From an uncultured Gemmatimonadaceae bacterium (GTDB lineage: Bacteria > Gemmatimonadota > Gemmatimonadetes > Gemmatimonadales > Gemmatimonadaceae), in the NCBI GenBank assembly GCA_963829055.1, contig CAWHHI010000016.1:1024001-1088000 (forward strand): 64,000 nt of DNA, in the 5' to 3' direction. Below the pieces are notes generated by a model that did not search any database, was not told the DNA's origin, and saw only the letters and a list, made by a program, of their open reading frames with translations. Shown piece after piece: positions 100-64,000 of the stretch (position 1 is the first letter of the stretch; the number at the start of each line of letters is the position of its first letter). A program made the translations under genes and the position numbers.

Positions 100-133
100 C
101 GGTAAGCGCCTAACGGGTTCGCGGAACGACGGC

Positions 134-1177
134 ATGACGCAGAGCGCCGAGGCGCCTCAGGCGTCGGTGGCTCCGGCCCCGGCACCACGGGAACAGGGAT
201 GGCGACGCATCATCCTTGCCCTCCTGGCGTTCGTGTTGTTGCCGCTCGTTCCGCTGCTCAGGGCGGCGGTGCCGATCGAGCAGTCGCTGTTGCTCATCGT
301 GCCGGCGCTCGCGACGTGCGCGCTCGTGGGCTGGTGGGCCGGGGGACGGCTATTCCTCGCGCTCACCTGGACCGCGCTCGCCGTCTGGATGCTCGTCACT
401 CCCCTTCCCGGCGCTCCGACATTCGTCGCGCTCTCGAAGGGTTGGGCGTTGCTGCTGGTCGCTTCGTTCGGCGTGGCCTCGATCATGAGTCCGCGCCAGT
501 CTTTTTTCCCGCGCGCGCTGTCGGCGATCGGACTGTCGTTCGGTGTTGGACTCGCGCTCGTTCTGTTCGCGTCGAGACGGCCGGATACGGTCGAACGTGC
601 AGTCCGCACAGAGTACACCCGGCGTGTCGACTCGTGGCTCACGGACTGGGAGTCGGTCTCACAGACGCGCGAGTGGCAGCAACTCGCGCGTGACAAGCCC
701 GGGATGGAAACGCTGGCTCGCGAGAGCTCGGAACGTCTGAAGCAGATTCCGCCGATCACGTCGCCGCTGTTTCCGTCGCTGCTGGCCCTCGAGTCACTCG
801 CGGTGTTGGCCCTCGCATGGGGCCTGTACCACCGAGTGAGTCGAGCGCGGATCGGGCCACCGCTCGCGCCGCTCAAGGAATTTCGCTTCAACGACCAACT
901 CGTCTGGGGGTTGGTCGCCGGAATCACCGCAGTCGCTGTACCAACAATGACTGCATTTCGCGTAGTCGGACTCAACCTGCTCGTGTTCTTCGGGGCGCTC
1001 TACGCGCTGCGTGGACTCGGAGTGCTCACCTGGTTCTTTGCGCCGGGGCGCCTCATGGTGGCGTTGACGATCGGACTCGCCATTTTCATGTGGCCGCTCA
1101 TCGGCGTGTTTGCGCTGGGGATCGGCCTCGGAGATACCTGGCTCGACTGGCGCAGTCGTCCGCGCCCGACCACATAA
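134..1177 (+). CDS. DUF2232/YybS-like integral membrane protein
   Basis: Multiple TM segments, C-terminal 'LGIGLGDTWLDWRSR' motif, lies between rpsR and rplI; ATG at 134 chosen. Confidence 0.8.
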   Translation: MTQSAEAPQASVAPAPAPREQGWRRIILALLAFVLLPLVPLLRAAVPIEQSLLLIVPALATCALVGWWAGGRLFLALTWTALAVWMLVTPLPGAPTFVALSKGWALLLVASFGVASIMSPRQSFFPRALSAIGLSFGVGLALVLFASRRPDTVERAVRTEYTRRVDSWLTDWESVSQTREWQQLARDKPGMETLARESSERLKQIPPITSPLFPSLLALESLAVLALAWGLYHRVSRARIGPPLAPLKEFRFNDQLVWGLVAGITAVAVPTMTAFRVVGLNLLVFFGALYALRGLGVLTWFFAPGRLMVALTIGLAIFMWPLIGVFALGIGLGDTWLDWRSRPRPTT

Positions 1178-1191
1178 CGACTGGAGTCAAC

Positions 1192-1638
1192 ATGGATGTC
1201 ATCTTGCGCCAGGCGGTCGAGAAGCTCGGCCAGCCGGGAGACGTGGTGAAGGTTTCGGCCGGGTTCGCCCGGAATTATCTGCTCCCTCGCGGCATCGCCT
1301 ACGCGGCGACCGCCGGGAATCTGAAGCGCATCGCCCAGGAGAAAGAGCGCCTCGAAGCCGCCGAGAACGAGCGGCGCGGCGGCGCACAGGGTATCGCGGC
1401 GCGCCTCGAGCAGGTCTCGCTCACCTTCTCGGCGCGCGTCGGTGAAGAAGGCAAGCTGTTCGGTTCCGTTACGTCCGCGGATATCACCGAGCAGCTGCAC
1501 GCTCAGGGCTTCGACATGATCGAGAAGCGCCAGATCGATCTCCACGAGCCCATCAAGGCACTCGGCGTCTATCGCGTGCCAGTCAGACTGCACGCCGATG
1601 TGAAGCCAGAGATCAAGGTCTGGGTCATCAAGCAGTAG
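1192..1638 (+). CDS. rplI: 50S ribosomal protein L9
   Basis: MDVILRQAVEKLGQPGDVVKVSAGFARNYLLP...GKLFGSVT; GGAG SD upstream. Confidence 0.97.
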   Translation: MDVILRQAVEKLGQPGDVVKVSAGFARNYLLPRGIAYAATAGNLKRIAQEKERLEAAENERRGGAQGIAARLEQVSLTFSARVGEEGKLFGSVTSADITEQLHAQGFDMIEKRQIDLHEPIKALGVYRVPVRLHADVKPEIKVWVIKQ

Positions 1639-1693
1639 GACGAAGCAGCAAGCAGCAGGAAGGCAGTAGGCACGAGCAACACTGCTGGAATTC

Positions 1694-1734
1694 ACGAGCC
1701 GGCCCGGGCGCACTGTACGCCCGGGCCGGCTCGT
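1694..1734 (+). terminator. 17-bp-stem hairpin after rplI, probable terminator
   Basis: ACGAGCCGGCCCGGGCG / CGCCCGGGCCGGCTCGT inverted repeat; weak U-tract. Confidence 0.65.
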
Positions 1735-1897
1735 CATTGCCGCCCATTTCTGCGCCGCAGTTTCCCGTTTCGGCGGCGACGCACGCGCATTATGCTTGGG
1801 CGACCGGTGGACCTGCGCCCCGGACCGCGTTCGTGTGGACGCGAGCCGTTGGCCCACGCTCCTCCACACCATTCGCAATCGGACCCGACTGCCCCGA

Positions 1898-2278: not shown

Positions 2279-5200
2279 GACTCGTGAGGGCGGGCGCATG
2301 CGCGGCCGCGCTCGCCGCCAGTGTTCTCGGCGCGGCGAGGCTCGAGGCGCAGACGTACTTCGGACAGAATCAGGTTCAGTACGACCGGTTCAAGTGGACG
2401 GTGCTCGAGACCGAGCATTTTCTCGTCCACTACTATCCGCAAGAGCGCGTCGCCGCGATGGACGCGTCTCGCATGGCCGAGCGTGCGTATGCCCGCCTCT
2501 CACGTCTCCTGAATCACCAGTTCCGCGAGAAGAAGCCGCTCATCCTCTACTCGTCGCGCGGCGACTTCGGTCAGAACAACGTGACCGGGGACCTCGGCGA
2601 AGGGACCGGCGGCGTCACCGAAGCGCTTCGCCATCGCATGCTCCTGCCGTTCACCGGCGACTACAGGAGCTTCGAGCACGTGCTGGCACACGAGATGGTG
2701 CACGCGTTCCAGTACGACATCTTCGCGCGCGGCCGCGCTGGCGCAGGGCTGCAGACCCTCGCCCAAGTCGATCCGCCGCTGTGGTTCATGGAAGGCATGG
2801 CGGAGTATCTCGCCGGCGGCCCAAACCACATTCTCACGCAGGCGTGGGTTCGCGACGCCGCGCTCAACGGCCACCTGCCGAGCCTCGAGCAGATGACCCT
2901 GCGCCCGGATCAGTTTTTCCCGTATCGCTACGGCGAGGCGTTCTGGGAATACGTCGGCAACCGGTGGGGCGACGAGATCATTGGCGAGGTGCTCAATTCC
3001 GCGCCTAACGTGGGCATCGAGCGCGCCTTCAAGCGCGAGACGGGCCTCTCGCTCGAGGACCTGAGCGACGAGTGGCGCGAGGCGATGCAGACGAAGCACC
3101 TGCCGCAGGTGGCGTCGCTCGACCGGGCGCGGAAGTTCTCGCAGCCGCTACTCAACGAACGGAAGAGTGGGGGCAGCCTCTTCCTCGCTCCATCGCTCTC
3201 CAGCGACGGCAAGCACATCGCGTTCGTGTCGCTCGGCAGCTTCCTTCGCGGACAGGTCTTCCCCGATCTCTGGCTTGGCGATGGCGAGACGGGCAAGCGC
3301 CTCAAGCGACTCGTGAAGTCGACGACCGATCCGAACTTCGAAGAGCTGCGACTGCTCTACTCACAGAGCGCGTTCTCTCCGGATGGAAAGACGCTCGCGT
3401 TCACCGCGCAGCGCGAGGGACGGGACGTCCTCTACCTGCTCGACGTTCAGCACCGCAAGACAACGTTCCGATTCGAATGTCGGTCTCGAGGGCGTGACTG
3501 GCCCATCATGGTCGCCGGACGGACGTCAGCTCGTCTTCAGCGGCAGTAACGGGGGAATCACCGACCTCTACGTCGTCGACAACAACGGCCGCAATCTCCG
3601 GCGCCTCACGAATGATCGGCACGGCGACGTGCAGCCGCAGTGGTCCCCGGACGGCAAGACGATCGCCTTCGCGTCGGACCGCGGCCCACAGACGCGACTT
3701 CGATGACCTGAAGTTCAGTCGCTGGCAGATCTCGCTCTACGACATGGAGTCCGGCCGCATCAGGGTGATCCCGGCGCAGAGCGGCCAGAATCTGAATCCC
3801 ATGTGGGCGCCGGACGGCAAGTCCATCGCGTTCGTCTCCGACCGCACGGGGATTCCGAACATCTTCATCTACGATCTGGAAAAGAAGAATCATTACCAGG
3901 TCACGAACGTCGTCGGCGCCGTGCTCGCCGTAACGGAGTACAGCCCGGTCATCACGTGGGCGCGCCAGGCGGACCGTCTCGCATTCGGCTACTACGAGAA
4001 CGGCGAGTACACCGTGTGGTCGGTGAATAATCCGCGGCGGCTCATGAAGGAGCCGTATCGCGACTCGACCGCGAAGGCGTCGGTCGTCGCACAGGGGCTG
4101 CCACGACTCGATTCAGCGAGCGTGCGTGCAACTGACGAGCGCCTGCCTGCCGTGACAAACTCGTCGGCGACGCCATCGTCGCTGCCACCCATTCCGCCGG
4201 TCGTCGCGCAGCGTGATACGTCGCGGCGCGACACATCCGTATTCGCTCCACGGTCGACGGCGAATCGTGATTCGGTTGCGCGCGACCTCTCGATCTATCG
4301 TGGCGCGGCGGGGATCCGCGCGTCGGCCGATCTGCCAAGTGGCCCGGAGCGGGCAGAGACGGTGGTGAGTGTCGCGCAGTTGCTCGACAGCGCGGCGCTC
4401 GCGCTCCCGGACACCACGACGTTCAAGCGATACGGATACAAGATCGGCTTCCAGCCGGAGTACATCTCGCGTCCGACGATCGGCTACACGCAGGACAACT
4501 TTGGCCGTGGTGTGTTCGGCGGCACCACGATCATCCTGAGCGATCTGCTCGGCGACCACCGTCTGGCGTTCGCCGCCCAGGTCAATGGCCGAATTACCGA
4601 AGCGTACCTGCTCAGCGCGTTCACGAGCATGGGTCAGCGCATGCAGTACACGGTCGGCGCGCTGCAACAGCCACAGTTCTACCTAACGGGGCAGAGGGAC
4701 GGGTTCGACGCCCGTGGGAATTATTACATCTCGCAGTCCATCACGCGCTTCATCACGCGTCAGGCGTTCTGGATCGGCGCGTATCCGTTGAACCGCTTCA
4801 CCCGCGTAGAGTTCGGCGGCAGCTTCAACGTCGTCGACCGTTCGTCGCAGGTGTACACGCAGTACTATCGCGCAGGCGACGGCGCCCCGATCGAGTTCGA
4901 CCCCGGGACCATCATCCAACAAAGGGGCCTCGTCTACGGCGCGCCATACCTGGCGTATGTCTCCGACAACACGCTCTTCGGTTACACGGGGCCGATAGCG
5001 GGCAGGCGGTACCGATTCCAGGTCGAGCCAGCACTCGGGTCGTATCGGTGGATCGAGTACCAGGGCGACTACCGGCGCTATTACCCGATCCTCTTCAACT
5101 TCCTCACGCTCGCCGCTCGGGCGCAGACGAGTATTTCCGTTGGCCGCGACGAAGAAGTCCTCGAGAAGTACATCGGTCGCCCCGAGTTCGTGCGCGGCTA

Positions 5201-5615
5201 TGATCGCGAGGAATACGGGCGTTCGTGCATACCCGGTACGGCTGCGTCCCCGGAGCAACGGCGGGGATGCAGTGCTATCGAGTTTCTCGGGAGTCGTGTG
5301 GCGTTCGCGAACGCAGAGTTGCGGTTCCCACTCGTCAGGCGGTTCGACCTCGGCCTGCTGCCGATCTCGCTGCCGCCGGTCGATGGACTCGTGTTCTACG
5401 ACGTCGGCCTCGCGTGGTCGAGCGGACAGAAGGTCGTCTCGAGAAGTAATCCAGACGCGGATGTCACGACCACACGCGCACCGCTTCGCAGCTGGGGCGT
5501 AGGCATCCGGCTCAACCTCTTCGGCTTCGCGCTCCTGCGGTGGGACTACTCGATCCCGCTGGACAGGCCGGGCGGAAAGGGATACTGGACCTGGACGTTA
5601 GGGCCCAGCTTCTGA
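2275..5615 (+). CDS. Omp85/BamA-TamA family outer-membrane protein with N-terminal HExxH peptidase-like domain and PD40/TolB-like repeats (apparent frameshifts near 3480 and 3690)
   Basis: Signal peptide, 'YFGQNQVQY', HEMVH...EGMAEY, repeated WSPDG/FSPDG, C-terminal barrel motifs 'VRGYD', 'NAELRFP', terminal Phe; spread over ORFs 2224, 3383, 3612. Confidence 0.85.
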
Positions 5616-7362: not shown

Positions 7363-8659
7363 CGGACCAGGCTGTGGGCGAATTCGAATCGCTGTGGGAG
7401 GCTGCGGGAAGTCGCGTGGCCGGAGGGCTCGACGATGCGAGCGCCGTTGTCGTCCTGGGCCATGACCCGATCGCGACGGCGTCGGTCGCTCTCGGCATCG
7501 CCCGGGCGCAGTCGGCGCGCAGACGCGTGGCCGTCGGTGATCTCATCGGCGACGTGCCACCGCTGCGCGATCTCGTGACGGACGACGACCCGCACGGGCT
7601 CACCGACGCGTTCCTGTACGGCGTGTCGATGAACAAGATCGCGCGCCAGATCGACGCCGCCGGCAACCTGCACGTGCTCCCGAGCGGGAGCGAGACCGTC
7701 GTTCAGGAGGAGATTCTCCGCAACGATCGGTGGCGTCGACTCGCGAGCGGTTTTCACGAGGTCGGGGCGTTACTGCTCGTCGCCGCGCCCGCCGCGGTGC
7801 CCGGCGTCGATGACCTGATCGGCATGCTCGACGGCGTCGTGCTCGTCGGCGGCGTCGAGAGTCCGGCGCCTAACGCGCGCGTCTTCGCCGACGTTGCCTC
7901 CGCGACGCGTCGCACGACACAACGGCCGGTGCAACGCAAGGCCGTCGTCATGCCCGAAGTCGTCGTGCTCGGCGTCGTCGGTGGGCAATGCCGGTCGCCG
8001 TTGCCGCTGTCCTTGCCGCGGTCGCGGTGGTGCTCGGGCGCAACTACCTAACGAGCGCTCCAGCGCCTGTCTCGGCGCTCCGCCGCGATTCCGCAGCGGC
8101 GTCCGACAGTCTCGTTTCTGCGTCTGCCGTAGTCGACTCGTCGCCGCCGCTCGTCGTGTCGAACCCGGCTGACTCCGCGAACGTGTCACCGTTCGCGGTG
8201 CAGATCGCGATGATCGACACCGAGGACGGCGCCGCGCTGCGCGTGCGCTCCGGAGCGGGCGACTTCCCGGTCGGCACTTATGCGCCAGTCACCCGTGGCA
8301 CTGATCGCGGCACCTGGTACAAGGTCGTCACAGGTGCGTACGTCGATCGCAAGAAGGCCGACCAGCTACTCACGTTCCTGCGCGGACGTGGGCTCGTTCC
8401 CCAGGGCTGGGGTAGCGTCATTCGGGCGCCGCTGGCGCTGCAACTCGTGACGGCACCGTCGGCGACGGAAGCAGCGGCGCTGATCGCCGACTATCAGTCG
8501 CGGAAGGTCCCCGTGTACGGTTTGTTGCAGCGTGATGGCTCGGTACGCATCTACGCTGGCGCATTCGAAAACCCCGATGAGGCCGCGCTGTTCAAGTCGG
8601 CGCTCAAGATGAAGAACATTGATGCGACCCTCGCTTACCGGGTCGGGAGAGCCTATTAG
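7359..8659 (+). CDS. Degenerate MinD/CpsD-like domain + TM + SPOR-like domains (apparent frameshift near 7960)
   Basis: 'GLTDAFLYG...NLHVLPSG' in ORF 7359; TM and 'WYKVVTGAY', 'IYAGAF' SPOR-like motifs in ORF 7988. Confidence 0.6.
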
Positions 8660-11600
8660 GTGCGTTTGACGAAGCTGGAGTTACAGGGATTCAAATCGTT
8701 CGCCGATAACACCATGCTCGCGTTCGAGCCTGGCGTGACGGCGATCGTCGGGCCTAACGGGTGCGGCAAGTCGAACGTGTCCGACGCTGTCCGTTGGGTG
8801 CTCGGTGAGCAACGCGCGCGGCTCCTTCGCGGCGCGAAGATGGAAGAGGTCATCTTCCAGGGCTCGTCGGCGCGTCGCGCCGTGAACCTCGCCGAGGTCT
8901 CCCTGCACTTCGACAACTCCGAGGGCCAGCTTCCAATCGCGTTCAAGGAGGTCGTCATTACGCGCCGTCTCTCGCGATCCGGCGAGAGCGACTACCTGCT
9001 GAACCGCGCGCCGTGCCGACTGCGCGACATCCACGACCTCCTGCGCGGCACCGGGCTCGGTGGCGACTCCGGCGTCGTGATCGAGTCGAAAGGAATCGAC
9101 GCATTGCTTTCGGACCGGCCCGACGATCGCCGGGAGCTGTTCGAGGAGGCTGCTGGCGTCGGGCTGTATCGCGATCGCCGTCGGAGCACGGAGCGACGGC
9201 TCGAGGAAACGACGACCGATCTCTCGCGCATCGACGACCTGATCGGAGAAGTACAGAGCCAGGTGCGATCACTCGGCCGTCAGCGGAAACGGGCCGAGCG
9301 CCACGCGGAGCTGATGTCGCGGCGATTCTCCGTCGAGCTGACGCTCGCCGAGCGCGAGATGCGCGCCTGGCACGAGGAGCTCGGCACACTCGAAGGGCGC
9401 GTCGCGGAACTTCGTGAGATCGTGCCGACGGCCGAAGCGGACGTGAGCGAGCACGAAGTCGCGCGAGACGCAGCGCACTCGGCTCGTGCCGCCGCCGAGG
9501 CACAGCGCGCGGAGCTCGCGCGGCTCGCGGCGGTGCAGCGCGAATCGGCGCAGCGACTTCGCGGGGAGATCGCAGTAGCCGAGGAACGGCAACGCAACGC
9601 ACTCATGCGACGCCAGCGCGCCGAAGAGGAGCAGCGTGAAGGTGAGGCGTTAGGCGAGCGGGTACAGGCCGACCGCGAGCGCGCCGTCGCCGAGCGCGCT
9701 AATCTCGAGGACGAAGTGCGCGAAGCAGCACAGGAGCTCGCACGGCGCGCGACCGCGGAAGAGCACGCCCGCCGCGGCGTCGCCGAAGTGCGCACAGCCG
9801 TGGAGGCCGCCGAGCGCCTGGCGCGAGAGAGTCGCGACCAGTTGCGTCGTCTGGAGATCGACCGAGAAGGCGCAGCGCGCGAGCTCGCCGAGGTAGAGCA
9901 GCGCGCGACTGTACTCGAGTCGGAGCGCGCGTCGCTCGCCGACGCCGCCGCATCGGTCGCACGTGAAGTCGAGACCGCGGACGAAGCTGTCGAGCTGGCG
10001 CAGGCCGCCGTCGCTCAGGCCGACGCTGCGCTCGCAGACGCCAGAGCAGCGATGGCCGAGGCCAAGGAGAACGAAGCCGCTGCTCGCCATGAGCTGTTCC
10101 GTGCCGATGAGGCGTTGACGGCACTTCAGGGAAAGGTCCACGGCCTGGAGTCGCTCGAGCGCGAGCGCGTTGGTCTGGCACCCGCAGCTGCGCGTCTCCT
10201 TCGCGAGCGGGCGCAATTCGGCGAAGGCGCTGTCCTCGGTCCGCTTTCGGATTTCGTGAACGCGAGTGCGGCCTCCGCGCTGCTCGTCGAGCGCTATCTC
10301 GGCGCCACGGTGCACGCCGTCGTCGTTCGGGACCAGCACGCGGCCGAGGTCATTCGACGCTGGCACGCGACGAGCAATCCGGGCGCACTGCTGTTGCTGC
10401 CGCTGGATGCCGTGCGCGAAGCAAACGGCGCGGCGTCCACCGGTGAGCTCGTCGCAGATGTGGACGCTGCCGCACCGGCACAGGGTTGGGTGCGCGCGTT
10501 GTTAGGCAACGTGCACGCGCTGGATGACGGCGCCGCGTTCGTCGACGCGCGCGGCGCCGTCTGGCTGCCGGGCGCCACGGGCGGCCCGGGACCGCTTCGT
10601 CGGCGTGCGGAGCTGTTCGCATTGCGCTCGGAGCTCACGGCCAGCGAGGCCGCGCGACAGACGGCATCAGCCGCCGCCGATGCAGCGCGGAGCGCACTGA
10701 CCACGGCGAACGATCGCGTTGCCGCCGCCTCGGAAGAAGCATCGGTCGTACAACAGCAGTGGCGTCGAGCTGGCGAGCAACGCGCTGAACTGGCGCGTCG
10801 CCTCCAGCGCGCCGAGCGTGAGGTCGCGGACGCAGCGGCGCTCGCTGGGCGTTTGCAAACACGGGCGAACGAGCTCACCGAGCGCATCGCGACGCTGGAT
10901 GCGTCGGCGAGCCAGCTCGGCGAGACGATCGCTCAGCGTGACGCCGCCATCGCGGAAAGCCGCACTCGCCTTTCCGAAGCAGAGCGCGCTCAGGAAGAGG
11001 CGCGTGAGCAACGCACGGCGGGGCAGATCGCCGAGGCGCAGGCACAAGCGCGCCTACAGGTGGCGTCGGACCGCGAGCGACGCCTCGTCGAGGAGTTCAC
11101 GTCGGCATCGGCCCGACTCCAGTCGCTCGAACATGAGCTCAGTACACTCGCCAACGCCGATCGCTCGCTTGCCGAGCAGATGGCGACGTGGCAGCTCGAT
11201 CTCGACGATCGTGACGCCACCCTGCGCGAGACGGACGACCGCCTGGCGGCCGCGGAACAAGCAGTCGTGGCCGCCGATACTGCACTCACCGAAGCGGATC
11301 ACGCGCTCGATGAGACGCGTCGTGTCGCGCACCAGACCGCCGATGAGCTGCATCACGCGGAGCTTCGGTTCACCGAGCTCTCAGGACGCCGGACGGCGAT
11401 CCGCGAGCGGCTCGAAACCGAGTGGCGCAAGCCGCTGGACGAGCTGCTCCAGTCGTTCACGCCGGTGGAGGTCGACGACGACACCCTGCGCAGTGAGGTC
11501 GAGCAGCTTCGCGCGCAGCTCGAGTCGTTAGGTGTGGTGAATCCGCTCGCGATCGAGGAACACGAGGAAGAAACGAAGCGCCTCGACTTCCTGACTTCGC

Positions 11601-23320: not shown

Positions 23321-23340
23321 CTCGCACGACCGTGTGGTCG

Positions 23341-52252: not shown

Positions 52253-54115
52253 CTACAGCGCACCGCGAGTAGCTCGTGGGGCCCGCAGCGCGTCGGTCTC
52301 TGGCACTGGCACCGGAAGGAAGTCCTCGCCGGGGTTGATGAATTGGTCCCGCTCGACGTGATACTGTTTGTCGTACAGTTGACGATACCGGCCATTGGCC
52401 GCGATCAGCTGGCCATGGGTTCCGCGCTCGATGATCCGGCCGTCCTCCATCACGAGGATCTGGTCCGCGCTCTCGATGGTCGACAAGCGATGCGCGATGA
52501 CGAACGTCGTTCGCCCTTGGCGGAGCGAGCGCAGGCCGTCGCGGATGAGCGCTTCGCTCTCGCTGTCCAGGCTCGACGTCGCCTCGTCCAGAATGAGAAT
52601 GCGCGGATCCGCGAGGATCGCGCGCGCGATGGCCACGCGCTGCCGCTGTCCGCCCGAGAGCTTTACGCCGCGTTCACCGACGATGGTGTCGTACTTCGCC
52701 TCGAACTTGTCGATGAACTCGTCACAGTGCGCGATCCGGCTCACCGCGCGAACCTCGTCGTCGGTGGCGTTAGGCTTCGCGAACGCGATGTTCTCCTTGA
52801 TCGTGCCGTCGAACAGGAAGTTGTCCTGCATGACGACGCCGAGATTCCCGCGATAGTCGCGAAGCCTGAGCGTCGCGATGTCCGCGCCGTCCACGAGCAC
52901 GCGGCCACTCGTCGGTCGATTGAACGCGGTGACGAGCCCGATGAGCGTGCTCTTGCCCGCACCGCTCGATCCCACGAGCGCCGTCGTCGTGCCAGCCGCG
53001 GTCGTGAACGACACGTCGCGCAACACGGGAACACCAGGCACGTACTCGAAGCTCACGTGCTCGAACGCGATGTCGCCCCGCACCTCGCTGATCGGCTCGC
53101 GCTGGGTGTCCTCCTGATCTTCGGTCGACGTCTGCCTGATCTCGCGGATCCGATCGAGGCCGGCGAACGCTTCGCTCACCTGCGTCCCGATGGACGCGAT
53201 TTGTACCAGCGGCGCGGCCACGAGCCCGATGAAGAAGATGTACATGACGAAGTCGCCGAGCGTCATCGTGCCGCCCACAATGGATCGCCCGCCGACGATG
53301 ATCATGAGCACGCCGATCACGCCGACGATCACGGTCGTGGCGGCGCCCACCGCCGACGTGCCCGTGATGGTGTCTGCAACATTCTTGAACAGCCGCTGAA
53401 TCCCCTCGGCGAAGATTCGCTCTTCGCGCTGCTCGGCCGTGTACACCTTGACCGTGCGAATCCCGCCTAACGCCTCACCGAGGCGGCCGGTCACTTCGGC
53501 GTTGATCTCACTGCGTTTCCGGAAGAGCGGACGTAGCCGCTTGAAGGCCACCGCCATCATCGCACCGAACGCCGACAGCACGATGATCGTCGACGCCGTG
53601 AGGTGCCAGTTGAGGTAGAACAGCACGCCAAGCGCGATGATCGCGGTGAGGAGCCCGCCCACCAGCTGCACGAGCCCCGTCCCGATCAGGTTCCGGATTC
53701 CTTCCGCGTCCGACATCACGCGCGAGATCAGAACGCCGGACTTGGTCGAGTCGAAGAACGACACCGGCAGGCGCAGGACGTGGCGCTGCACGTCGATGCG
53801 GAGGTCGCTGATCGCACGCTGCGCCGCGATGCTCACCGTCTGCGCCAGCAGGAACGAGGTGATCGCCTGAATGACCGTGGCGCCCCCCACGGCCAGCGCG
53901 AGCGGAACCAGCTTCGTCAGATCGTGCTTTCCAAGGACGTTGTCGATGAGGTACTTCGACGACGCCGGCAGTACCAGCCCGGCGAGTCGGTTCACGAGCA
54001 TCAACACGAGCCCGAGTCCGAGCGAGCGGCGGTGCTTCCAGATCAGCGCACGGGCTTCGGGCCAGGCACGCGCCATGTTGACGCGTGGTTTTTTCGGCGG
54101 GACGGGATCAGCCAT
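52253..54115 (-). CDS. ABC transporter fused permease/ATP-binding (exporter, MsbA-like)
   Basis: 6 TMs, GSSGAGKST, LSGGQRQR, ILDEATS, AHRLST. Confidence 0.93.
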   Translation of the reverse strand: MADPVPPKKPRVNMARAWPEARALIWKHRRSLGLGLVLMLVNRLAGLVLPASSKYLIDNVLGKHDLTKLVPLALAVGGATVIQAITSFLLAQTVSIAAQRAISDLRIDVQRHVLRLPVSFFDSTKSGVLISRVMSDAEGIRNLIGTGLVQLVGGLLTAIIALGVLFYLNWHLTASTIIVLSAFGAMMAVAFKRLRPLFRKRSEINAEVTGRLGEALGGIRTVKVYTAEQREERIFAEGIQRLFKNVADTITGTSAVGAATTVIVGVIGVLMIIVGGRSIVGGTMTLGDFVMYIFFIGLVAAPLVQIASIGTQVSEAFAGLDRIREIRQTSTEDQEDTQREPISEVRGDIAFEHVSFEYVPGVPVLRDVSFTTAAGTTTALVGSSGAGKSTLIGLVTAFNRPTSGRVLVDGADIATLRLRDYRGNLGVVMQDNFLFDGTIKENIAFAKPNATDDEVRAVSRIAHCDEFIDKFEAKYDTIVGERGVKLSGGQRQRVAIARAILADPRILILDEATSSLDSESEALIRDGLRSLRQGRTTFVIAHRLSTIESADQILVMEDGRIIERGTHGQLIAANGRYRQLYDKQYHVERDQFINPGEDFLPVPVPETDALRAPRATRGAL

Positions 54116-54120: not shown

Positions 54121-56334
54121 TCAGAACCTCGCGCGGATCGTCACGAACACGTTCCGCTGCGGGAGAACGTAGTAGTAGGACGTCGTGCCGTCGGTGTAAC
54201 CACCGGTGTAGAACGGCGTGTTCGTCAGATTGTTCGCGCGGATGCCGAGTGTGTAACGCAGGATCGTCCAGCCGACCGTGCCATCGAGCGTGGCGCGTCC
54301 CGGCGTCGTGAACCGGGCATCACTCGTGTTGGCGAGATAGGATCGGCCGACGAATCGCCCGTCGAGCGAGGTGGTGAGCCCGCGGCCTAACGCGTAGCGG
54401 AGCGACGCGTTCGCGATGACGCGCGGCGTGAGCAACGGCTCGACGTCGCGGTACGTGACACCCGCGGCGTCATCGGTGTAGGCATCGATCCGGTTCTGAC
54501 TCACCGTCGCGTTGAGCGTGCCGGTGAGTGCCGCGGTCGCGCGGAAGGCCGCGTCTATCTCCACACCACGCCGGTAGCTGCTCGCCACGTTCTTCCGCAG
54601 CGGGAGGCCAAGGTAGCTGAGCTCTCCGATCGGCGAGATCTCGTTGTGGAAGTCCATCGAGTAGAGGTTGGCCTGCACGCCGAAGCGGGCAGTGCGCAAT
54701 GCTATCCCCGCTTCGAGATCTCGAACGGACTCTGGCTTGACGCGCGCGAAATCGCCGACGAACTCGACGTTCGACGTGTCGAGATTGTCGAAGCCGGCCA
54801 GCATGTCGTTGCGCGCGGGCTCGCGACCGTTGCGGCCGTACGAGGCGTACAACGCGCCAGGCGCTGTTCGCCTGCCACGTCACACCGATCTTTGGGTTCA
54901 CGAACGTCCAGTCGATGCTGACGACTGGTGATGCCGGCATTCACGTCGGGCTCGTACCGGAAGGCAGCGTACCGAACCTGCAAGTCCCCGAGGATCGACC
55001 ACGCGCCCACGCCATACGTCGCTTTCGCGAACGCGCTCGCATCGTCTTTCTCGCCCGTGTTGTCGTAGAGGCGGGTGTCGAGGTCGGGCCTGACGACGGC
55101 GTAGTGCGATCGTCGATACCCGTTCGCGTGAGCACCGCCGAGCAGCTGCAATCGACCAACGCGTGCGCGCGCGGTCGCGATCGCACCGCACGGCGTTGGA
55201 TGCGAGGTTGAAGTTCTCGAGATCCGGATCGACGCGAACGTCGTAATTGCCGTCCGACCACATCCCGTACGCGGTCACGCCGACGCTGGCATCGGGGCCA
55301 AGGAGACGAGTGTATTGGGCGCTCGCGAAATCCTGGAAGAAGTCATCACGTTCGGACTCCGTGAGCGGATTCGCGCGCGGATCCGCTGCCAGGTCTTCCG
55401 CGGACGCCGCGAGATACGCGAGCCCGTTGCGCGCGCGTCCGCCGAACGCGACGAGCTTCACGATGTCACGGTCGCCGAAGTAGCCGCCGCTCAAAAAGAA
55501 CGACTCTGACCGATTGCTCGAGTTGCGGCGATAGCCTTCCGTCTGCTGCACCGATCCGCGCGCGTACAATGAAAGGCGCGAGGGCAAGAGCCCCGTCGCA
55601 TACTCGAGGCTACCGCGATTCGAGTCGAACGATCCTCGCTCGAGTTGCACCTCGCCCCCGCGTTGCCCACCTGCGAGGCTGACCGACTCCATCATCAGCG
55701 AGCCCGCATACGACGCGACGCCATTCGAGCTCGCCCCGACGCCTCGCTGCAGCTCGACCGATTGCAGGCTATTCGTCAGATCCGGGAAGTTCGAGAAGTA
55801 GACGAAGTGATCTTCCGGGTCGTTGAGTGGAATGCCGTCGAGCGTGATGTTGATGCGAGTCTGGTCGATGCCACGCAGCCGCATGTACGAGTACCCGGAG
55901 AACGACCCGGCATCCGAGTACGCCGTGACCGACGGTGCCGTCGTGAGCAGCAGCGGCAACTCCTGTCCGAAGTAGCGACGATCGAGCTCGGCCTCGTCGA
56001 TCGTCGCGCGCGTGACCGGCGCGGCATCGTCACCGCGGACCGCCGTGATCGTCGACGCTTCCAGCGTGCGAGCCGTGGGCGTCAGGACCACCAGGAGCGT
56101 GCTATCGCCGGGCGCCGCGACAAGCTCACGAGGCGTGTACCCCGCGCGAAAAAACCGCAAGCGGGTGGTCGTTGACGTCACCAGGCGGAATCTGCCGTGC
56201 GTGTCTGTGCGAACCGTGTCGCTCCCACCGACCGCGCTGACGATCACGCCAGCGATGGGTTGGTCGTTCACCGCGCTTCGTACTTCGCCGCCGACATCGG
56301 CGGCGATCGCCAGCGCGAGAATCAAATGCACCAC
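54121..56334 (-). CDS. TonB-dependent receptor, vitamin (thiamine/PnuC-associated)-type plug (apparent frameshifts near 55190 and 54860-54930)
   Basis: N-terminal CarboxypepD-like domain, 'RLRGIDQTRINITLDGIPLNDPED', 'ELQRGVG', C-terminal 'NNLTN...RNVFVTIRARF'. Confidence 0.88.
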
Positions 56335-57780: not shown

Positions 57781-59484
57781 GTGTTCGTCCCGAAGCTGTT
57801 CACGACCCTCGAGAACTACGACCGCCAGCAGTTCACGAACGATCTCACGGCCGGCGTGATCGTTGGCATCGTGGCGCTGCCACTGGCGATCGCGTTCGGC
57901 ATCGCGAGCGGCGTGACGCCGGCACAAGGCCTCTACACCGCAATCGTCGCTGGCTTCCTCATCTCCGCACTCGGCGGCTCTCGCGTGCAGATCGGCGGCC
58001 CCACCGGGGCGTTCGTCGTCGTGGTCTACGCGATCGTCCAACGGTACGGGGTGTCCGGGCTCGCGGCCGCGACATTCATGGCCGGTGTGATTCTCATACT
58101 GCTCGGGGTGTTCAAGCTCGGAACGCTCATCAAGTTCATTCCGCACCCGTTGATCACCGGGTTCACATCGGGCATCGCCGTGATCATCGCGTCGAACGAG
58201 CTCCGCGACTTCTTTGGCCTGCAGGTCGCGACGATGCCGTCCGAGTTCGTGGAGAAGCTCGACGTATTGTGGGGAGCGGCCGGTAGCGTGAATCCATGGG
58301 CGGTCGCGGTAGCCTCGTTCACGTTAGGCCTGCTCATCGGGTGGCGCCACCTCAACTGGCGACTCCCCGGCCCATTCGTCGCGCTCGTCGTCACGACGGC
58401 CATCGTGCAGCTGTTTCACCTGCCGGTGGAGACCATCGGAAGCCGGTTTGGCGCGCTCGATCTCGCCTTCCCCGCCCCGTCCATTCCGTCCATTTCGTTC
58501 TCGGATGTGCGCGGTCTCGTCGGACCAGCATTCACGATCGCCGCGCTCGGCGCCATCGAGTCGCTGCTCTCGGCCATGGTCGCCGATGGCATGATCGGCG
58601 GACGACACCGATCGAACATGGAGTTGGTCGCGCAGGGCATCGCGAACATTGCGTCGCCGATGTTCGGCGGCATTCCCGCAACGGGCGCGATCGCGCGCAC
58701 CGCGACGAACGTGAAGAATGGTGGCCGCACGCCGGTCGCGGGAATGATTCACGCGTTGACGTTGCTGCTGATCGTGCTCGTGTTCGGGAAGTGGGCTGCG
58801 CTCATTCCGATGGCGACGCTCGCCGGCGTGCTGATGCTCGTCGCGTATCAGATGAGCGAGTGGCGCGTGTTCCGCGCCGAGCTGCGAGGGCCGCGCGAGG
58901 ACGCGGCGGTGCTCGTGACGACATTTCTGCTCACCGTCATCGTGGATCTCACGGTGGCCATCGGCGTCGGAATGGTGCTCGCATCTTTCCTGTTCATGAA
59001 GCGGATGGCCGAAGCGACGAACGTATCCGCCGTCACGCGCGAGTTGCGAAAGGATGGCGACGACACCACGTACTCCGCGCCCGGCGCGATCAGTCAGCGC
59101 AGCGTCCCGGAGCGCGTCGAAGTATTCGAGATCAGCGGCGCATTCTTCTTCGGTGCGGCGGAGGCGTTCAAGGAAGCGTTAGGCCAGATCTCCGGCCGTC
59201 CGTGGGTGATCATCATCCGGATGCGCGACGTGAGCGTCCTCGATTCATCGGGTCTGCATGCGCTTCAGGAAGTCGTCCGCCGGTTTCGTCGCGACCGCAC
59301 CGTGGTGTTGCTGGCCGAGGTGCATGCGCAGCCGCTCGCGGTGATCGAGGCATCCGAGCTATTCACCGAGATGGAGGACGACATCTTCATGGACATTGAC
59401 GACGCGCTGGACCGGGCCCGCGGTCACGTGGCTACGCGTACCACCGGCACCGTCCCCGCCGTAGCAGCGAATCCCACTCAGTAA
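57781..59484 (+). CDS. SulP family anion transporter with STAS domain
   Basis: GIVALPLAIAFG, QIGGPTGAF, ESLLSA, TGAIARTA, GAFFFGAA, DSSGL. Confidence 0.95.
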   Translation: MFVPKLFTTLENYDRQQFTNDLTAGVIVGIVALPLAIAFGIASGVTPAQGLYTAIVAGFLISALGGSRVQIGGPTGAFVVVVYAIVQRYGVSGLAAATFMAGVILILLGVFKLGTLIKFIPHPLITGFTSGIAVIIASNELRDFFGLQVATMPSEFVEKLDVLWGAAGSVNPWAVAVASFTLGLLIGWRHLNWRLPGPFVALVVTTAIVQLFHLPVETIGSRFGALDLAFPAPSIPSISFSDVRGLVGPAFTIAALGAIESLLSAMVADGMIGGRHRSNMELVAQGIANIASPMFGGIPATGAIARTATNVKNGGRTPVAGMIHALTLLLIVLVFGKWAALIPMATLAGVLMLVAYQMSEWRVFRAELRGPREDAAVLVTTFLLTVIVDLTVAIGVGMVLASFLFMKRMAEATNVSAVTRELRKDGDDTTYSAPGAISQRSVPERVEVFEISGAFFFGAAEAFKEALGQISGRPWVIIIRMRDVSVLDSSGLHALQEVVRRFRRDRTVVLLAEVHAQPLAVIEASELFTEMEDDIFMDIDDALDRARGHVATRTTGTVPAVAANPTQ

Positions 59485-61716: not shown

Positions 61717-61745
61717 ATCGCCCTGAGCGCACGTCGGAGGACCTC

Positions 61746-61774
61746 CAAAGGCGCGAGCGCTGCTCGCGCCTTTG
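61746..61774. terminator. Bidirectional terminator between convergent genes
   Basis: CAAAGGCGCGAGC-GCT-GCTCGCGCCTTTG. Confidence 0.7.
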
Positions 61775-61779
61775 ACGTT

Positions 61780-62745
61780 CTACGGGTCCGTTCGGCCGTC
61801 TGCAACGAAAGCGATCCGATCGCCGCGCCCGCTCACCGCGATACGTGTGATGCCCTTCACGCCCGCCGAACCCAGATCCGCGATCTCGCGCCAATCGTCA
61901 CCGCTGTTGCCTGACCACCAGAACAGCCGAGAACCGCGACCGCACACGATCGAGCCTCCGGGCAACCAGGCGTAATCCTCGACGGTCTCCGGGAGTCGGA
62001 CGAGCCGCGCGGTCGCGCGGGTCGCCGGATCGAGCGACTCGATCCACCATTCCGTCGCTGAGACCTTCCGCACGAAGCTGATGCGCCGGCTGTCGGGAAT
62101 GCGATGGAGAGAACGCCCAATGCCCGAGGCGATCGTGTCCGCGACGCCTGTCCGGGTATCGGCGAGCTGCAACGTATTAGGAGAGCCGAGCACGAACAGC
62201 GCGAGCGTGTGGTCGTCGGCCCAGGCGTGATAGCCGACGGGCTTCACGCGCTCGAGAATCACGCTGGGAGGGCTCCCGTCGAGCGGGAAGCGCCAGAGTC
62301 GCTGTGCCGAATCGCGCTCGACACGCACGACGGAGATCGCGCGTCCCTGGTCCATCGCCGTCGCCGAGTACTCACTCTCGGGAGCAGTCGACGTAACGCG
62401 GGACGTCCCCTTCGTCGCAATGTCGTAGCGATATATGTCGGCTTGTGCATCATTCCGGACGGACGTGAAGAACACGCCCGATTGGTCCCAGCTGAAGCTT
62501 GGCTGGTTGTCGTAACCGGGCCGATCAGTGATGTTGATCGGTGCGCCGATTTTCGGCGTTCCCGCAGTTCGCGTTATCGACGCCAGGTATATATCTGGCG
62601 GCGGCGCGGGCCGCTCCGCGGGTCTGGTCGAAGCGGGTTGCTGCGCATTGGCGGGCTCGCCATAACACGCGACGGCGAGGCAGCAGGCGGTCGCGAATGC
62701 GGTCCGAGAGCGCAGGCGAGGGAACTTTTGCCGAAAAGCGAACAC
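61780..62745 (-). CDS. TolB-like beta-propeller secreted protein (start uncertain)
   Basis: 'PGYDNQPSF', 'ESEYS', 'PVGYHAW', 'ITRIAVS'; the upstream part of the long ORF is the antisense of the next gene. Confidence 0.75.
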   Translation of the reverse strand: MFAFRQKFPRLRSRTAFATACCLAVACYGEPANAQQPASTRPAERPAPPPDIYLASITRTAGTPKIGAPINITDRPGYDNQPSFSWDQSGVFFTSVRNDAQADIYRYDIATKGTSRVTSTAPESEYSATAMDQGRAISVVRVERDSAQRLWRFPLDGSPPSVILERVKPVGYHAWADDHTLALFVLGSPNTLQLADTRTGVADTIASGIGRSLHRIPDSRRISFVRKVSATEWWIESLDPATRATARLVRLPETVEDYAWLPGGSIVCGRGSRLFWWSGNSGDDWREIADLGSAGVKGITRIAVSGRGDRIAFVADGRTDP

Positions 62746-62946
62746 GGCGGGGATTGGGGGTAACAGTGCGTGGAGGTGGACCACGTGGTCCGTCGCTGCG
62801 CGAGCATCGTACGATACCGATTGGCGGCAGCGCAACTCGCTGGTCTGGCTTTCTGAACGACGTTGGGGGTGGTATGCCGCTTGCCCCCCTTCGGGCACGC
62901 GGCCGGCTACACGCTGGTCGCCACGATACACCACACGGAGATCCAC

Positions 62947-64000
62947 ATGCGTCGGTTCGCGGGAATGGGAACGCGGTCGATGATGCTCGTTGCCGTCCTG
63001 GCAGCGGCCGCGCCGTCCTTGGTCGAGGCGCAGTACTTCGGGCGCAACAAGGTGCAGTACCAGACGTTCGATTTTCGCGTCCAGAGTACCGAGCACTACG
63101 ACCTGCACTTCTACCCCGCGGAATCGCTGGCGACGGCAGACGCTGGACGGATGGCCGAACGATGGTATACGCGGCTGTCCGGGATCATGCGGCACCAGTT
63201 CAATCGGAAGCCGCTCGTGTTTTACGCCGACCACCCGGACTTCGAGCAGACGAACGTCATCGGTGGATTCATCGATCAGAGCACCGGCGGCGTCACGGAA
63301 TCCGGGCGTAGCCGCGTCATCATGCCGTTCACCGGCGTCTACGAGGAGAACGACCACGTGCTCGGCCACGAGATGGTGCACGTGTTCCAGTACGACATCG
63401 CCGAGAATCCCACGAGCGGCGGGTACCAGGGACTGAATCAGTTGCCGCTCTGGCTCATCGAAGGTATGGCCGAGTACCTGTCGGTCGGCCGGCAAGACCC
63501 GCACACCGCAATGTGGATGCGCGACGCGGCACTTCGAAACGATCTGCCGTCGATCAAGAAGCTCACGACCGACCCACGGTATTTCCCGTATCGCTACGGC
63601 CAGGCGCTGTGGGCGTACATCGGCGGCAAGTGGGGCGATCAGGGAGTGAGCGACGTGTATCGCGCGTCGCTCCGCGGCGGCTGGGACGCGGCACTGCGCC
63701 GCGTGATCGGCATCTCGAGCGACTCGCTGTCGAAGGAATGGCTGGCGTCCATCCGCGACACGTACATGCCGTTGATGGAAGGGCGGACGAAGCCGCAAGA
63801 CGTCGGTCAGCCGTTGCTCGGCAATCCGAATGAGCCCGGGGACATGAACGTCGCGCCGGCCGTGAGCCCGGACGGCAAGTGGGTCGCGTTCTTCGCACGC
63901 CGTGGCCTGTTCACCGTCGACCTGTTCGTCGCCGACGCGAACACGGGAAAAGTCGTCAAGAAGCTCACGGGGCCTAACGCGGACCCGCACTTCGACGCGC
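62947..64000 (+). CDS. Second peptidase/PD40 (Omp85-type) paralog, 5' part, runs off the window
   Basis: GGAG SD, signal peptide, 'QYFGRNKVQY', 'STGGVTE', HEMVH...EGMAEY, 'YFPYRYG', VSPDG; clearly homologous to 2275-5615. Confidence 0.85.
   Translation, partial: MRRFAGMGTRSMMLVAVLAAAAPSLVEAQYFGRNKVQYQTFDFRVQSTEHYDLHFYPAESLATADAGRMAERWYTRLSGIMRHQFNRKPLVFYADHPDFEQTNVIGGFIDQSTGGVTESGRSRVIMPFTGVYEENDHVLGHEMVHVFQYDIAENPTSGGYQGLNQLPLWLIEGMAEYLSVGRQDPHTAMWMRDAALRNDLPSIKKLTTDPRYFPYRYGQALWAYIGGKWGDQGVSDVYRASLRGGWDAALRRVIGISSDSLSKEWLASIRDTYMPLMEGRTKPQDVGQPLLGNPNEPGDMNVAPAVSPDGKWVAFFARRGLFTVDLFVADANTGKVVKKLTGPNADPHFDA

What the first reader, a model, noticed from the sequence alone, without database searches (positions are those of the whole stretch)
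109..63979. Highly iterated non-palindromic heptamer CCTAACG/CGTTAGG, about one per 1.5 kb on both strands: candidate undescribed genome-marking system
SEEN: hand count of 44 exact copies. CCTAACG on + starts at 109, 3004, 4682, 7869, 8047, 8753, 12472, 15286, 16060, 16602, 17312, 20089, 20711, 23826, 25057, 26006, 33763, 40279, 41122, 46602, 53466, 54386, 63973. CGTTAGG on + starts at 5596, 9648, 11526, 13297, 19851, 22911, 23339, 27055, 27610, 32708, 34610, 39312, 46404, 47250, 48635, 49535, 50208, 51246, 52768, 58322, 59177. The base 5' of CCTAACG is G in about three quarters of copies and never T. These copies account for most CTAA/TTAG tetramers I could find. A zero-order estimate at an assumed ~68% GC gives about 7 copies. 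KNOWN: Neisseria DUS and Pasteurellaceae USS are non-palindromic, strand-unbiased, mostly intragenic and occur at roughly one per kb. Chi and KOPS are strand-polarised, and cyanobacterial HIP1 is palindromic. INFERENCE: the pattern best fits a DUS/USS-like self-DNA uptake signal, or the site of a nucleoid protein or an asymmetric methyltransferase. I know of no such motif described for this lineage.
Basis: partly seen in the sequence, partly recalled or inferred. Interest (0 to 1): 0.9.

Follow-up and report, generated by a model that had tools for sequence, protein, structure and literature searches.

The report
Self-spacing DNA tag in Gemmatimonadaceae
A group of soil bacteria has written one eight-letter DNA word thousands of times into its genes, and each copy keeps other copies away and makes the neighbouring ~140 bases richer in G and C, which is the footprint expected if the word triggers short DNA-exchange events that spread it; the protein that reads it is still unknown.

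Summary
Real: all 44 copies are at the stated places. The Gemmatimonadaceae genome holds 6,391 (248 expected; 15-43x over codon-preserving nulls). The working motif is RC(C/A)TAACR, best GCCTAACG. It is unpolarised, conserved past synonymous saturation, and rich in 58 of 221 family genomes. The scan met this word before in other genomes.

New here are two independent footprints with one length scale, about 140 bp. Copies repel each other whatever their orientation. Silent-site G+C rises on both sides of each copy, while total divergence is unchanged and G<->C changes rise 16%. That fits a tag that promotes short, GC-biased gene-conversion tracts from donor DNA and so drives itself (0.5). A bound protein or repair patch is the main rival (0.27).

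Methylation (HIP1-like) is unlikely: a motif-rich cultured strain's published methylome lacks the word. Chi/KOPS is rejected. The word equals the family's integron R box, but integrase presence does not track it. No reader was found among 11 families or proteins tested. It works like a DUS/USS but is not a member: no ComP, no terminator pairs, shorter scale.

The parts
109..115 (+). CCTAACG, outside called genes
3004..3010 (+). CCTAACG, Pro-Asn frame
4682..4688 (+). CCTAACG, Leu(CTA)-Thr frame
5596..5602 (-). CCTAACG, Leu(TTA)-Gly frame of a + gene
7869..7875 (+). CCTAACG, outside called genes
8047..8053 (+). CCTAACG, Leu-Thr frame
8753..8759 (+). CCTAACG, Pro-Asn frame in the 1,175-aa SMC-like gene (name recalled)
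9648..9654 (-). CCTAACG, Leu-Gly frame
10500..10507 (-). variant GCCTAACA (enriched 38x, carries the halo)
11526..11532 (-). CCTAACG, Leu-Gly frame
12472..12478 (+). CCTAACG, Pro-Asn frame
13297..13303 (-). CCTAACG, Val(GTT)-Arg(AGG) frame
15286..15292 (+). CCTAACG, Pro-Asn frame
16060..16066 (+). CCTAACG, Leu-Gly frame of a - gene
16602..16608 (+). CCTAACG, Leu-Gly frame
17312..17318 (+). CCTAACG, Val-Arg frame
19851..19857 (-). CCTAACG, outside confidently called genes
20089..20095 (+). CCTAACG, outside confidently called genes
20711..20717 (+). CCTAACG, Leu-Gly frame
22911..22917 (-). CCTAACG, Leu-Gly frame
23339..23345 (-). CCTAACG, between convergent genes
23826..23832 (+). CCTAACG, Leu-Gly frame
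25057..25063 (+). CCTAACG, Val-Arg frame
26006..26012 (+). CCTAACG, Leu-Gly frame
27055..27061 (-). CCTAACG, Leu-Thr frame
27610..27616 (-). CCTAACG, Leu-Thr frame
27978..27985 (-). variant GCATAACG (repelled by the main word, full halo)
29083..29090 (+). variant GCATAACG
32708..32714 (-). CCTAACG, outside called genes
33763..33769 (+). CCTAACG supplying the TAA stop of ORF 33126-33767
33898..33905 (+). variant GCATAACG
34610..34616 (-). CCTAACG, outside confidently called genes
39312..39318 (-). CCTAACG, Leu-Thr frame
40279..40285 (+). CCTAACG, outside confidently called genes
41122..41128 (+). CCTAACG, Leu-Gly frame
46404..46410 (-). CCTAACG at the TAA end of a called ORF (the gene looks split here; not checked)
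46602..46608 (+). CCTAACG, Leu-Gly frame
47250..47256 (-). CCTAACG, Pro-Asn frame
48635..48641 (-). CCTAACG, Leu-Thr frame
49535..49541 (-). CCTAACG, Pro-Asn frame
50208..50214 (-). CCTAACG, outside confidently called genes
50838..50845 (-). variant GCATAACG
51246..51252 (-). CCTAACG, Leu-Thr frame
52768..52774 (-). CCTAACG, Pro-Asn frame
53466..53472 (+). CCTAACG, Leu-Gly frame
54386..54392 (+). CCTAACG, Leu-Gly frame
58322..58328 (-). CCTAACG, Leu-Gly frame
59177..59183 (-). CCTAACG, Leu-Gly frame
63973..63979 (+). CCTAACG, Pro-Asn frame

Best explanation
The word is a self-propagating recombination tag. A protein binds RC(C/A)TAACR on double-stranded donor DNA, most likely at the uptake step of natural transformation. 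Donor pieces that carry it replace the homologous chromosomal stretch more often than pieces that lack it. The replaced tract reaches about 140 bp (mean) to each side. Three things follow. (1) Alleles that create the word are driven up, even through rare codons and stop codons. (2) A second copy inside the same tract adds little, so copies repel each other whatever their orientation. (3) Mismatches in the heteroduplex are settled towards G/C, leaving a G+C halo of the same width. SHOWN: enrichment, degenerate consensus, conservation, lack of polarity, orientation-free repulsion, two-sided halo, shared length scale, unchanged total divergence with more G<->C change, presence of uptake genes. 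INFERRED: that the tract is a recombination tract, that the bias acts on the donor, and that it acts at uptake.
For: Repulsion: 8-mer pairs under 100 bp apart are 0.16-0.26 of expectation and recover by about 500 bp; 11 control words show no such steady dip. The share of silent opportunities used rises with distance to the next copy (Leu-Gly 0.04 to 0.41, Pro-Asn about 0.2 to 0.74) and is equal for same or opposite strand and 5' or 3' neighbours (coefficients 0.23-0.26, SE 0.02). It is replicated in four other sets of rich loci. Halo: within-gene, context-adjusted GC3 is +1.45 points at 9-35 bp and -0.27 beyond 500 bp, and control words are flat. It is absent at unused opportunities and present beside copies at gene ends, and both sides carry it (2.06 and 2.94, SE 0.2). 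A one-parameter tract model gives a best scale of 140 bp for repulsion (13,199 opportunities) and, separately, 140 bp for the halo. In 255 orthologous gene pairs from 8 genome pairs, at full tract cover, total four-fold divergence is -1%, G<->C +16% (2.36 +/- 0.72 points; three controls -1 to -12%), weak/strong differences -24% and A+T content -47%. That is a change in fixation bias rather than better fidelity. DUS flanks are likewise more divergent (PMC2397512, passages). Sharp USS-centred peaks with short fragments, and no gain from a second USS within 100 bp, are reported in PMC7811141 (passages). DprA is in 50 of 50 genomes, ComEC in 5 of 5, prepilins in 5 of 5.
Against: No reader was found. 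Uptake genes and pilin sets are the same in rich and poor genomes, so they do not explain the contrast. ComP_DUS is over its cut-off in 0 of 5. G000 itself gave no ComEA-type match (86% complete, 4 of 4 congeners match weakly). Known conversion fragments are 0.6-1.7 kb (PMC2397512), and short fragments recombine poorly in H. influenzae (PMC7811141), so 140 bp is short. USS are enriched, not depleted, in close pairs (23% within 100 bp, PMC7811141; here 2.3% of gaps). The rise of A/T-to-G/C changes that biased conversion predicts (0.42 near against 0.35 far) is not robust, because a control shows 0.40 against 0.34. The halo's scale is loosely bounded (about 90-220 bp within 2 log-likelihood units), and a spreading protein or repair patch predicts the same shared scale. 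The G000-G004 flank test was inconclusive. PMC4866539 (passages) found no general GC-recombination link across ten species. Errors treat sites or genes as independent, and some genomes appear in two of the 8 pairs.
Confidence: 0.5

Rival explanations
1. A chromosome-binding protein nucleates at the word and spreads, wraps or starts a repair patch over about 140 bp each side. Selection for coverage keeps and spaces the sites. The patch shields or repairs C-to-T and G-to-T damage, raising G+C.
For: It predicts orientation-free repulsion and a halo with one shared scale and graded, affinity-like flanks. G/C-to-A/T changes fall near copies (0.105 against 0.136) more clearly than A/T-to-G/C changes rise. 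A nucleoid role is proposed for HIP1 (PMC5861425, abstract).
Against: Total silent divergence is not lower (-1%), amino-acid divergence is not lower (+13%, not significant) and G<->C is higher, so there is no net protective gain to select on. No candidate protein tracks the trait (Ku 22 of 25 rich, 14 of 25 poor; topoisomerase IB 20 of 25 and 13 of 25).
Confidence: 0.27
2. The integron integrase is the reader. It binds its R box on incoming single-stranded donor DNA and transfers that strand into the homologous chromosomal site, importing the box.
For: attC-like sites in 20 loci of motif-poor genomes carry GCCTAACG (34 of 110 strand hits), GCCTAACA (22) and GCATAACG (7); these same forms are enriched and carry the halo in G000. 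attI-like boxes beside intI end in the same word. IntI acts on transforming single strands (PMC12614218, abstract and passages). It would be donor-specific.
Against: IntI is in 32 of 40 rich and 30 of 40 poor genomes. Rich G094 has only a stop-interrupted fragment, and G000's only IntI-like protein lacks the catalytic His (motif recalled). The attC forms GTCTAACG (10 hits) and GCCCAACG (6) are depleted genome-wide (about 0.5x) and have no halo. Copies avoid attC-like pairing. A single strand transfer should give a one-sided halo.
Confidence: 0.1
3. HIP1-type ratchet: a methyltransferase marks the word and methyl-directed mismatch repair fixes new copies until neighbouring marks compete (model in PMC4390886).
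For: It predicts saturation with distance and looser first and last positions, both seen. An order-wide orphan adenine methyltransferase of a type that reads asymmetric sites exists (156 of 160 genomes). m5C would be poorly seen by PacBio (recalled).
Against: Named plasmid records of Gemmatirosa kalamazoonensis are rich (24 and 18 GCCTAACG per 40 kb), yet its PacBio methylome lists only RGATCY, ATGCAC and CCAGN7TCA (PMC3974934, whole text). C5 methyltransferase is in 1 of 5 rich genomes; PF01555 is in 13 of 33 rich and 25 of 36 poor. The core enzyme has the same recognition-domain motifs in both classes. There is no fall in total divergence.
Confidence: 0.07
4. Chi- or KOPS-type polar signal for a translocating enzyme.
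For: An asymmetric octamer linked to recombination; the halo is somewhat stronger on the 3' side.
Against: 48.3% of 3,046 copies lie on the KOPS strand against 83% of 378 KOPS. Opposite-strand neighbours repel as much as same-strand ones. The halo is two-sided. dif is canonical and unlike the word.
Confidence: 0.02
5. Assembly artefact, codon or peptide bias, or remains of a mobile repeat.
For: The assembly has frameshifts and foreign segments.
Against: It is present in 20 genera, written in four coding frames with the rarest codons (1,963 of 2,948 TTA), shows no shared flanks beyond 8 bp, and is conserved at orthologous sites.
Confidence: 0.01

Closest known systems
DNA uptake sequences: DUS of Neisseriaceae (receptor ComP) and USS of Pasteurellaceae
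   Same: Non-palindromic, unpolarised, about one per 1.2 kb, written into genes by silent changes, conserved, absent from foreign DNA, flanks not less divergent; host has DprA, ComEC and type IV pilins.
   Different: 8 bp with a degenerate core position; no inverted terminator pairs and strong close-pair depletion; length scale about 140 bp rather than 0.6-1.7 kb; no ComP; patchy within one family and one genus; uptake bias untested.
HIP1 and alternate HIPs of cyanobacteria
   Same: Hyper-abundant 8-mer, conserved in and between genes, looser first and last positions, function unknown.
   Different: Not palindromic; no matching methyltransferase; not methylated in the one published methylome of a rich strain; motif-poor relatives show no alternate word in 1.16 Mb of loci.
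Integron attC/attI R box (RYYYAAC / GTTRRRY; consensus recalled)
   Same: The commonest R boxes in this order's own cassette arrays are the same words, including GCCTAACA and GCATAACG.
   Different: Copies are single, unpaired, lack hairpins and L boxes and sit inside genes; two attC forms are depleted genome-wide; integrase presence does not track the trait.
Chi and KOPS
   Same: Asymmetric octamer; recombination-linked (Chi).
   Different: No replichore polarity, orientation-independent interference, two-sided halo.

Membership tests
DUS/USS | Non-palindromic word, strongly over-represented, about 1 per kb, no strand bias | tested here: met
DUS/USS | Conserved at orthologous sites, depleted in foreign DNA | tested here: met
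   47 of 119 shared at 50% four-fold identity, TTA kept 33 of 46 in the word against 4 of 23 outside; 0-1 copies per 20 kb in foreign segments
DUS/USS | Host has transformation machinery | tested here: met
   DprA 50 of 50, ComEC 5 of 5, HHH_3 75 of 80 but not G000, some hits being larger non-ComEA proteins
DUS/USS | Close inverted pairs used as terminators | tested here: not met
   Inverted pairs under 60 bp at 0-0.31 of expectation
DUS | ComP receptor | tested here: not met
   PF16732 over cut-off in 0 of 5; same pilin clusters in 2 rich and 2 poor congeners, none basic
DUS/USS | Sequence-biased DNA uptake | not testable with these tools
   needs an uptake assay
HIP1 | Palindrome | tested here: not met
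   sequence
HIP1 | Cognate methyltransferase co-occurs and the word is methylated | tested here: not met
   methylome in PMC3974934 with richness; m5C not excluded by that method
HIP1 | 10-90 kb periodicity | not tested
   draft assembly in 20 contigs
Chi/KOPS | Replichore polarity and orientation-dependent action | tested here: not met
attC site | R'' and R' boxes paired in a hairpin 50-150 bp long | tested here: not met
   attC-like orientation at 60-150 bp is 0.33-0.38 of expectation
attC/attI R box | Sequence of the family's own R box | tested here: inconclusive
   3 of the 6 commonest attC forms are enriched genome-wide, 2 are depleted, GTCTAACA not counted separately
attC/attI R box | Bound by IntI | not testable with these tools
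   needs a binding assay; presence does not track the trait

The most novel reading that the evidence does not exclude
Some Gemmatimonadaceae have a third, independently evolved self-DNA tag system. It reads the integron R-box word, possibly because it arose to capture gene cassettes from environmental DNA, and it recombines very short fragments of about 300 bp. Each copy is then a fine-scale, motif-defined recombination hotspot whose GC-biased conversion footprint can be read directly in a bacterial genome.
Probability: 0.3. Interest if true: 0.93.

Novelty: new variant of a known kind. Interest (0 to 1): 0.8.

Why it matters
Sequence-specific self tags are known from two Proteobacterial families (recalled), and HIP1 is still unexplained. 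The matched 140 bp repulsion and G+C halo turn two open questions into measurements: whether such words spread by molecular drive or by selection, and whether GC-biased gene conversion acts in bacteria at base-pair resolution. The same two tests can be run on DUS, USS and HIP1. In practice, absence of the word marks foreign segments in bins of this group.

Tried and rejected
Rfam scan of the window: 0 hits. Regex hunt for DNA methyltransferases in six frames of G000 gave only RNA-methylase-like and chance hits; it missed the frameshifted core enzyme found later. Alternate words in poor genomes: none in 1.16 Mb of loci, which is a small sample. XerC/XerD half-site idea: dif is canonical in 5 of 5. 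IntI, ComEC, ComEA-type, DprA, pilins, ComP, Ku, topoisomerase IB, PF01555, PF02384 and PF00145 do not separate the classes. Terminator or attC pairing and regulatory clusters: close pairs are rare and scattered. Link to expression: density is 0.65-0.85 per kb across six codon-score classes. Flank divergence G000 against G004 was underpowered. Polarised A/T-to-G/C rate was not robust to controls. Contigs of 4 of the 24 listed runs cover all 30 bins of window 2001-19000, but only 40 of 636 differences were shown (none in a copy), so no polymorphism test was possible. Literature searches that found no description of the word; searches for comparators. The library lacks most subscription papers, and I opened no supplementary files.

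Full report
OBSERVATION. In the window the word leads all 6-, 7- and 8-mers (44 against 1.7 under an order-2 Markov model). The genome G000 (7.78 Mb, 20 contigs, 86% complete) holds 6,391 copies against 248 expected, 3,154 on + and 3,237 on -. The closest named relatives of the window's 1,175-aa SMC-like protein are Gemmatimonadaceae (the name SMC is recalled). Genes were called with my own dicodon caller (8,653 ORFs, 7,196 high-scoring), which is imperfect because the assembly has frameshifts. In those genes there are 4,317 copies against 290 after a synonymous shuffle and 100 after resampling from non-motif codons.

ANATOMY. The word is written in four coding frames and as both stop codons: Pro-Asn, Leu(CTA)-Thr, Leu(TTA)-Gly, Val(GTT)-Arg(AGG), 292 of 894 TAA stops and 242 of 1,841 TAG stops. 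It takes 1,963 of 2,948 TTA codons. Sense and antisense use are about equal, so it is a DNA signal. Fold enrichments of the 8-mer and its 24 one-off variants give a graded motif: GCCTAACG 63, ACCTAACG 60, GCCTAACA 38, CCCTAACG 13, GCCTAACT 9, TCCTAACG 5.5, GCCTAACC 3.5, GCATAACG 3.0, GCCTGACG 2.0, and all other inner changes 0.17-1.3. GCATAACG behaves as a true site: it is repelled and has a full halo, whereas GCCTGACG has neither. The consensus is RC(C/A)TAACR. Lineages differ in which flank may vary. There is no polarity: 1,471 of 3,046 copies lie on the strand that carries 314 of 378 KOPS (KOPS recalled). The 20-kb blocks with 0-1 copies are foreign-looking segments at contig ends (judged foreign from their gene content by recall). 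These and a fragmented stretch of C16 were left out; the foreign segments alone were left out.

DISTRIBUTION. All 6 congeners are rich. By hand count, 58 of 221 family genomes in 20 of 60 genera exceed twice the reversed-word control; most others have a few dozen copies or fewer, and some are intermediate. Genus g57 has five rich members and four poor, one of the poor being unpublished. None of 101 genomes from the 11 other families of the phylum exceeds its control (two unpublished, both low), though three genomes of family f3 showed a 1.4-5.6x excess of the heptamer that I did not resolve. On a tree of a core gene from 47 genomes the rich/poor label needs 8 changes, at least 5 forced by well-supported branches (unrooted, so gains and losses are not told apart). 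Sites persist: 47 of 119 are shared with G004 at 50% four-fold identity, and 39 of 63 where the amino acids are unchanged, against 0 of 27 for rare-codon control words and 21 of 60 for common ones. In closer pairs 81 of 103 and 71 of 77 are shared (controls 39 of 87 and 57 of 79).

FOOTPRINT 1, REPULSION. Pairs of 8-mers closer than 100 bp occur at 0.16-0.26 of expectation, 0.4 at 100-175 bp, 0.72 at 200-250 bp and about 1 beyond 500 bp. Eleven control words show no such steady dip; most are at or above 1 and a rare one is noisy. Gaps under 100 bp are 2.3% against 7.5% for random spacing. Protein sequence is controlled by asking what share of silent opportunities is used. That share climbs from 0.04 to 0.41 (Leu-Gly), about 0.2 to 0.74 (Pro-Asn), 0.02 to 0.36 and 0.02 to 0.20 with distance to the nearest other copy, then falls again beyond 1.2 kb where motif-poor regions dominate. 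Same-strand, opposite-strand, 5' and 3' neighbours count equally. The dip is also seen in loci of G004, genus g57, named Gemmatirosa plasmids and a mixed set; in the small G068 set it shows only at 100-400 bp, with an excess under 50 bp.

FOOTPRINT 2, G+C HALO. Within genes, after adjusting for codon family and neighbours and removing motif codons, third-position G+C is +1.45 points at 9-35 bp, +0.4 to +0.7 at 35-100 bp, about 0 at 150-300 bp and -0.27 beyond 500 bp; control words are flat or slightly negative. The halo is missing at unused opportunities and is present (+2 points) in the last codons of genes whose stop or tail holds a copy, so it does not come from protein context. It lies on both sides. 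Fitting one exponential reach to each footprint separately gives 140 bp for repulsion (120 and 170 bp are 2.7 and 5.1 log units worse) and 140 bp for the halo (flat from about 90 to 220 bp). In 255 gene pairs from 8 genome pairs, with gene effects removed, full cover goes with A+T at four-fold sites -47%, weak/strong differences -24%, G<->C differences +16% (2.36 +/- 0.72 points by gene bootstrap; controls -1.8, -1.6, -0.1) and total divergence -1%. Polarised counts show G/C-to-A/T falling (0.105 against 0.136). The rise in the opposite direction is matched by a control and is not counted as evidence.

Methylation: PF01555 is in 13 of 33 rich and 25 of 36 poor genomes, and PF00145 in 1 of 5 rich. 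Weak PF02384 hits led to a ~1,060-aa Eco57I/MmeI-like adenine methyltransferase followed by a SNF2-like helicase. It is single-copy in nearly all of 156 of 160 genomes of the order, rich and poor alike, with the same recognition-domain motifs in both classes. Two named plasmid records of Gemmatirosa kalamazoonensis carry 24 and 18 GCCTAACG per 40 kb, yet that strain's PacBio methylome lists only RGATCY, ATGCAC and CCAGN7TCA (PMC3974934, whole text). That the core enzyme makes ATGCAC is my guess. Integrons: cassette arrays of motif-poor genomes start and end with the same word. Among 110 strand hits (about 55 sites, a few false, in 20 loci I chose near intI or at spaced copies) GCCTAACG is 34, GCCTAACA 22, GTCTAACG 10, GCATAACG 7, GCCCAACG 6 and GTCTAACA 5. 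But IntI is in 32 of 40 rich and 30 of 40 poor genomes, is intact in both classes, and is degenerate in G000; two attC forms are depleted genome-wide. dif is canonical. Uptake genes: DprA 50 of 50, ComEC 5 of 5, HHH_3 75 of 80, pilin clusters alike in both classes, no ComP. Ku and topoisomerase IB lean towards rich genomes but do not separate them. Panels were picked by motif content and contain kin, so these are screens, not statistical tests.

MECHANISM. One process with a two-sided reach of about 140 bp explains both footprints. It makes a second copy redundant and tilts fixation towards G/C without lowering divergence. Donor-biased recombination with short tracts predicts all of this and also supplies the drive that creates copies (inference; 0.5). 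A spreading protein or repair patch predicts the shared scale but not the G<->C excess, and gives no measurable fidelity gain to select on (0.27). An integrase reader explains the sequence but not the distribution or the two-sided halo (0.1). A methylation ratchet (0.07) and Chi/KOPS (0.02) fail direct tests. Why the trait is patchy is unexplained; a change in one receptor surface, or in how much a lineage recombines, would both fit the graded densities.

COMPARISON AND NOVELTY. It works most like DUS/USS but fails two membership features (terminator pairs, ComP) and has a shorter scale than the 0.6-1.7 kb conversion fragments in PMC2397512 (passages). PMC7811141 (passages) describes the short-fragment regime that would give such footprints, and also notes that short fragments recombine poorly there. 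HIP1 was read in PMC4390886 (part 3 of 8 and passages) and PMC5861425 (abstract and outline). Integron points come from PMC12614218 (abstract, outline, passages) and the GC-recombination caveat from PMC4866539 (passages). I found no paper describing the word; subscription papers and supplements were not seen and could hold word-frequency tables that list it. The few lines shown do not mention repulsion, a halo or the methylome, and a look-up for those words found nothing.

VERDICT. A real, lineage-specific, undescribed DNA signal with a measured functional reach. New variant of a known kind; interest 0.8.

Noticed in passing
G000 C8:73539-76755 (+); L122:3319-8780: An order-wide, nearly always single-copy Eco57I/MmeI-like adenine methyltransferase whose N-terminal part shows no conserved nuclease residues, followed by a SNF2-like helicase: 156 of 160 genomes. 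It looks like a domesticated housekeeping pair; in G000 it is in five pieces.
   Followed up: partly
G000 C11:1-43000, C6:1-55000, C6:595000-623330: Segments with almost no copies and gene content that looks like other phyla: probable chimeric joins or bin contamination. The word could serve as a purity marker. C16:400000-460000 is also low and fragmented.
   Followed up: partly
G000 C20:207950-208958 (L095); C20:163143: The only IntI-like gene has Arg in place of the catalytic His (motif recalled), beside R-box words; a similar protein is in G117 (L098, 55%). An attC-like perfect hairpin lies at C20:163143.
   Followed up: partly
window 5619-5663: Intergenic tandem GGGAATC/GGGACT heptamer repeat; 87 near copies of its first 28 bases in G000 and many in congeners.
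   Followed up: no
window 19040-19150: Intergenic tandem repeat of about 20 bp with dispersed look-alikes in congeners.
   Followed up: no
L159 (G133): CCTCTAG 11 times in 20 kb against 0.5 expected: a local repeat or a second word.
   Followed up: no
G048, G050, G052 (family f3): Moderate excess of CCTAACG over control (1.4-5.6x); could be large cassette arrays or a weak genome-wide signal.
   Followed up: no
window 7967, 3475-3478, 3694, 13081, 14571: Single-base indels against contigs of independent runs (all four at 7967), which suggests assembly frameshifts in the window; the comM-like gene at 45165-46861 (name recalled) is also split.
   Followed up: no
whole genome: CTAG is at 0.29 and TTAA at 0.39 of order-2 expectation; CTAG is also low (0.39) in motif-poor loci.
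   Followed up: no
L130-L137, L138-L139, L237-L238: Dialects: G000 and G116 tolerate ACCTAACG and GCATAACG, G149 tolerates GCCTAAC followed by A, C or T, and the Gemmatirosa plasmids use almost only GCCTAACG and GCCTAACA.
   Followed up: partly
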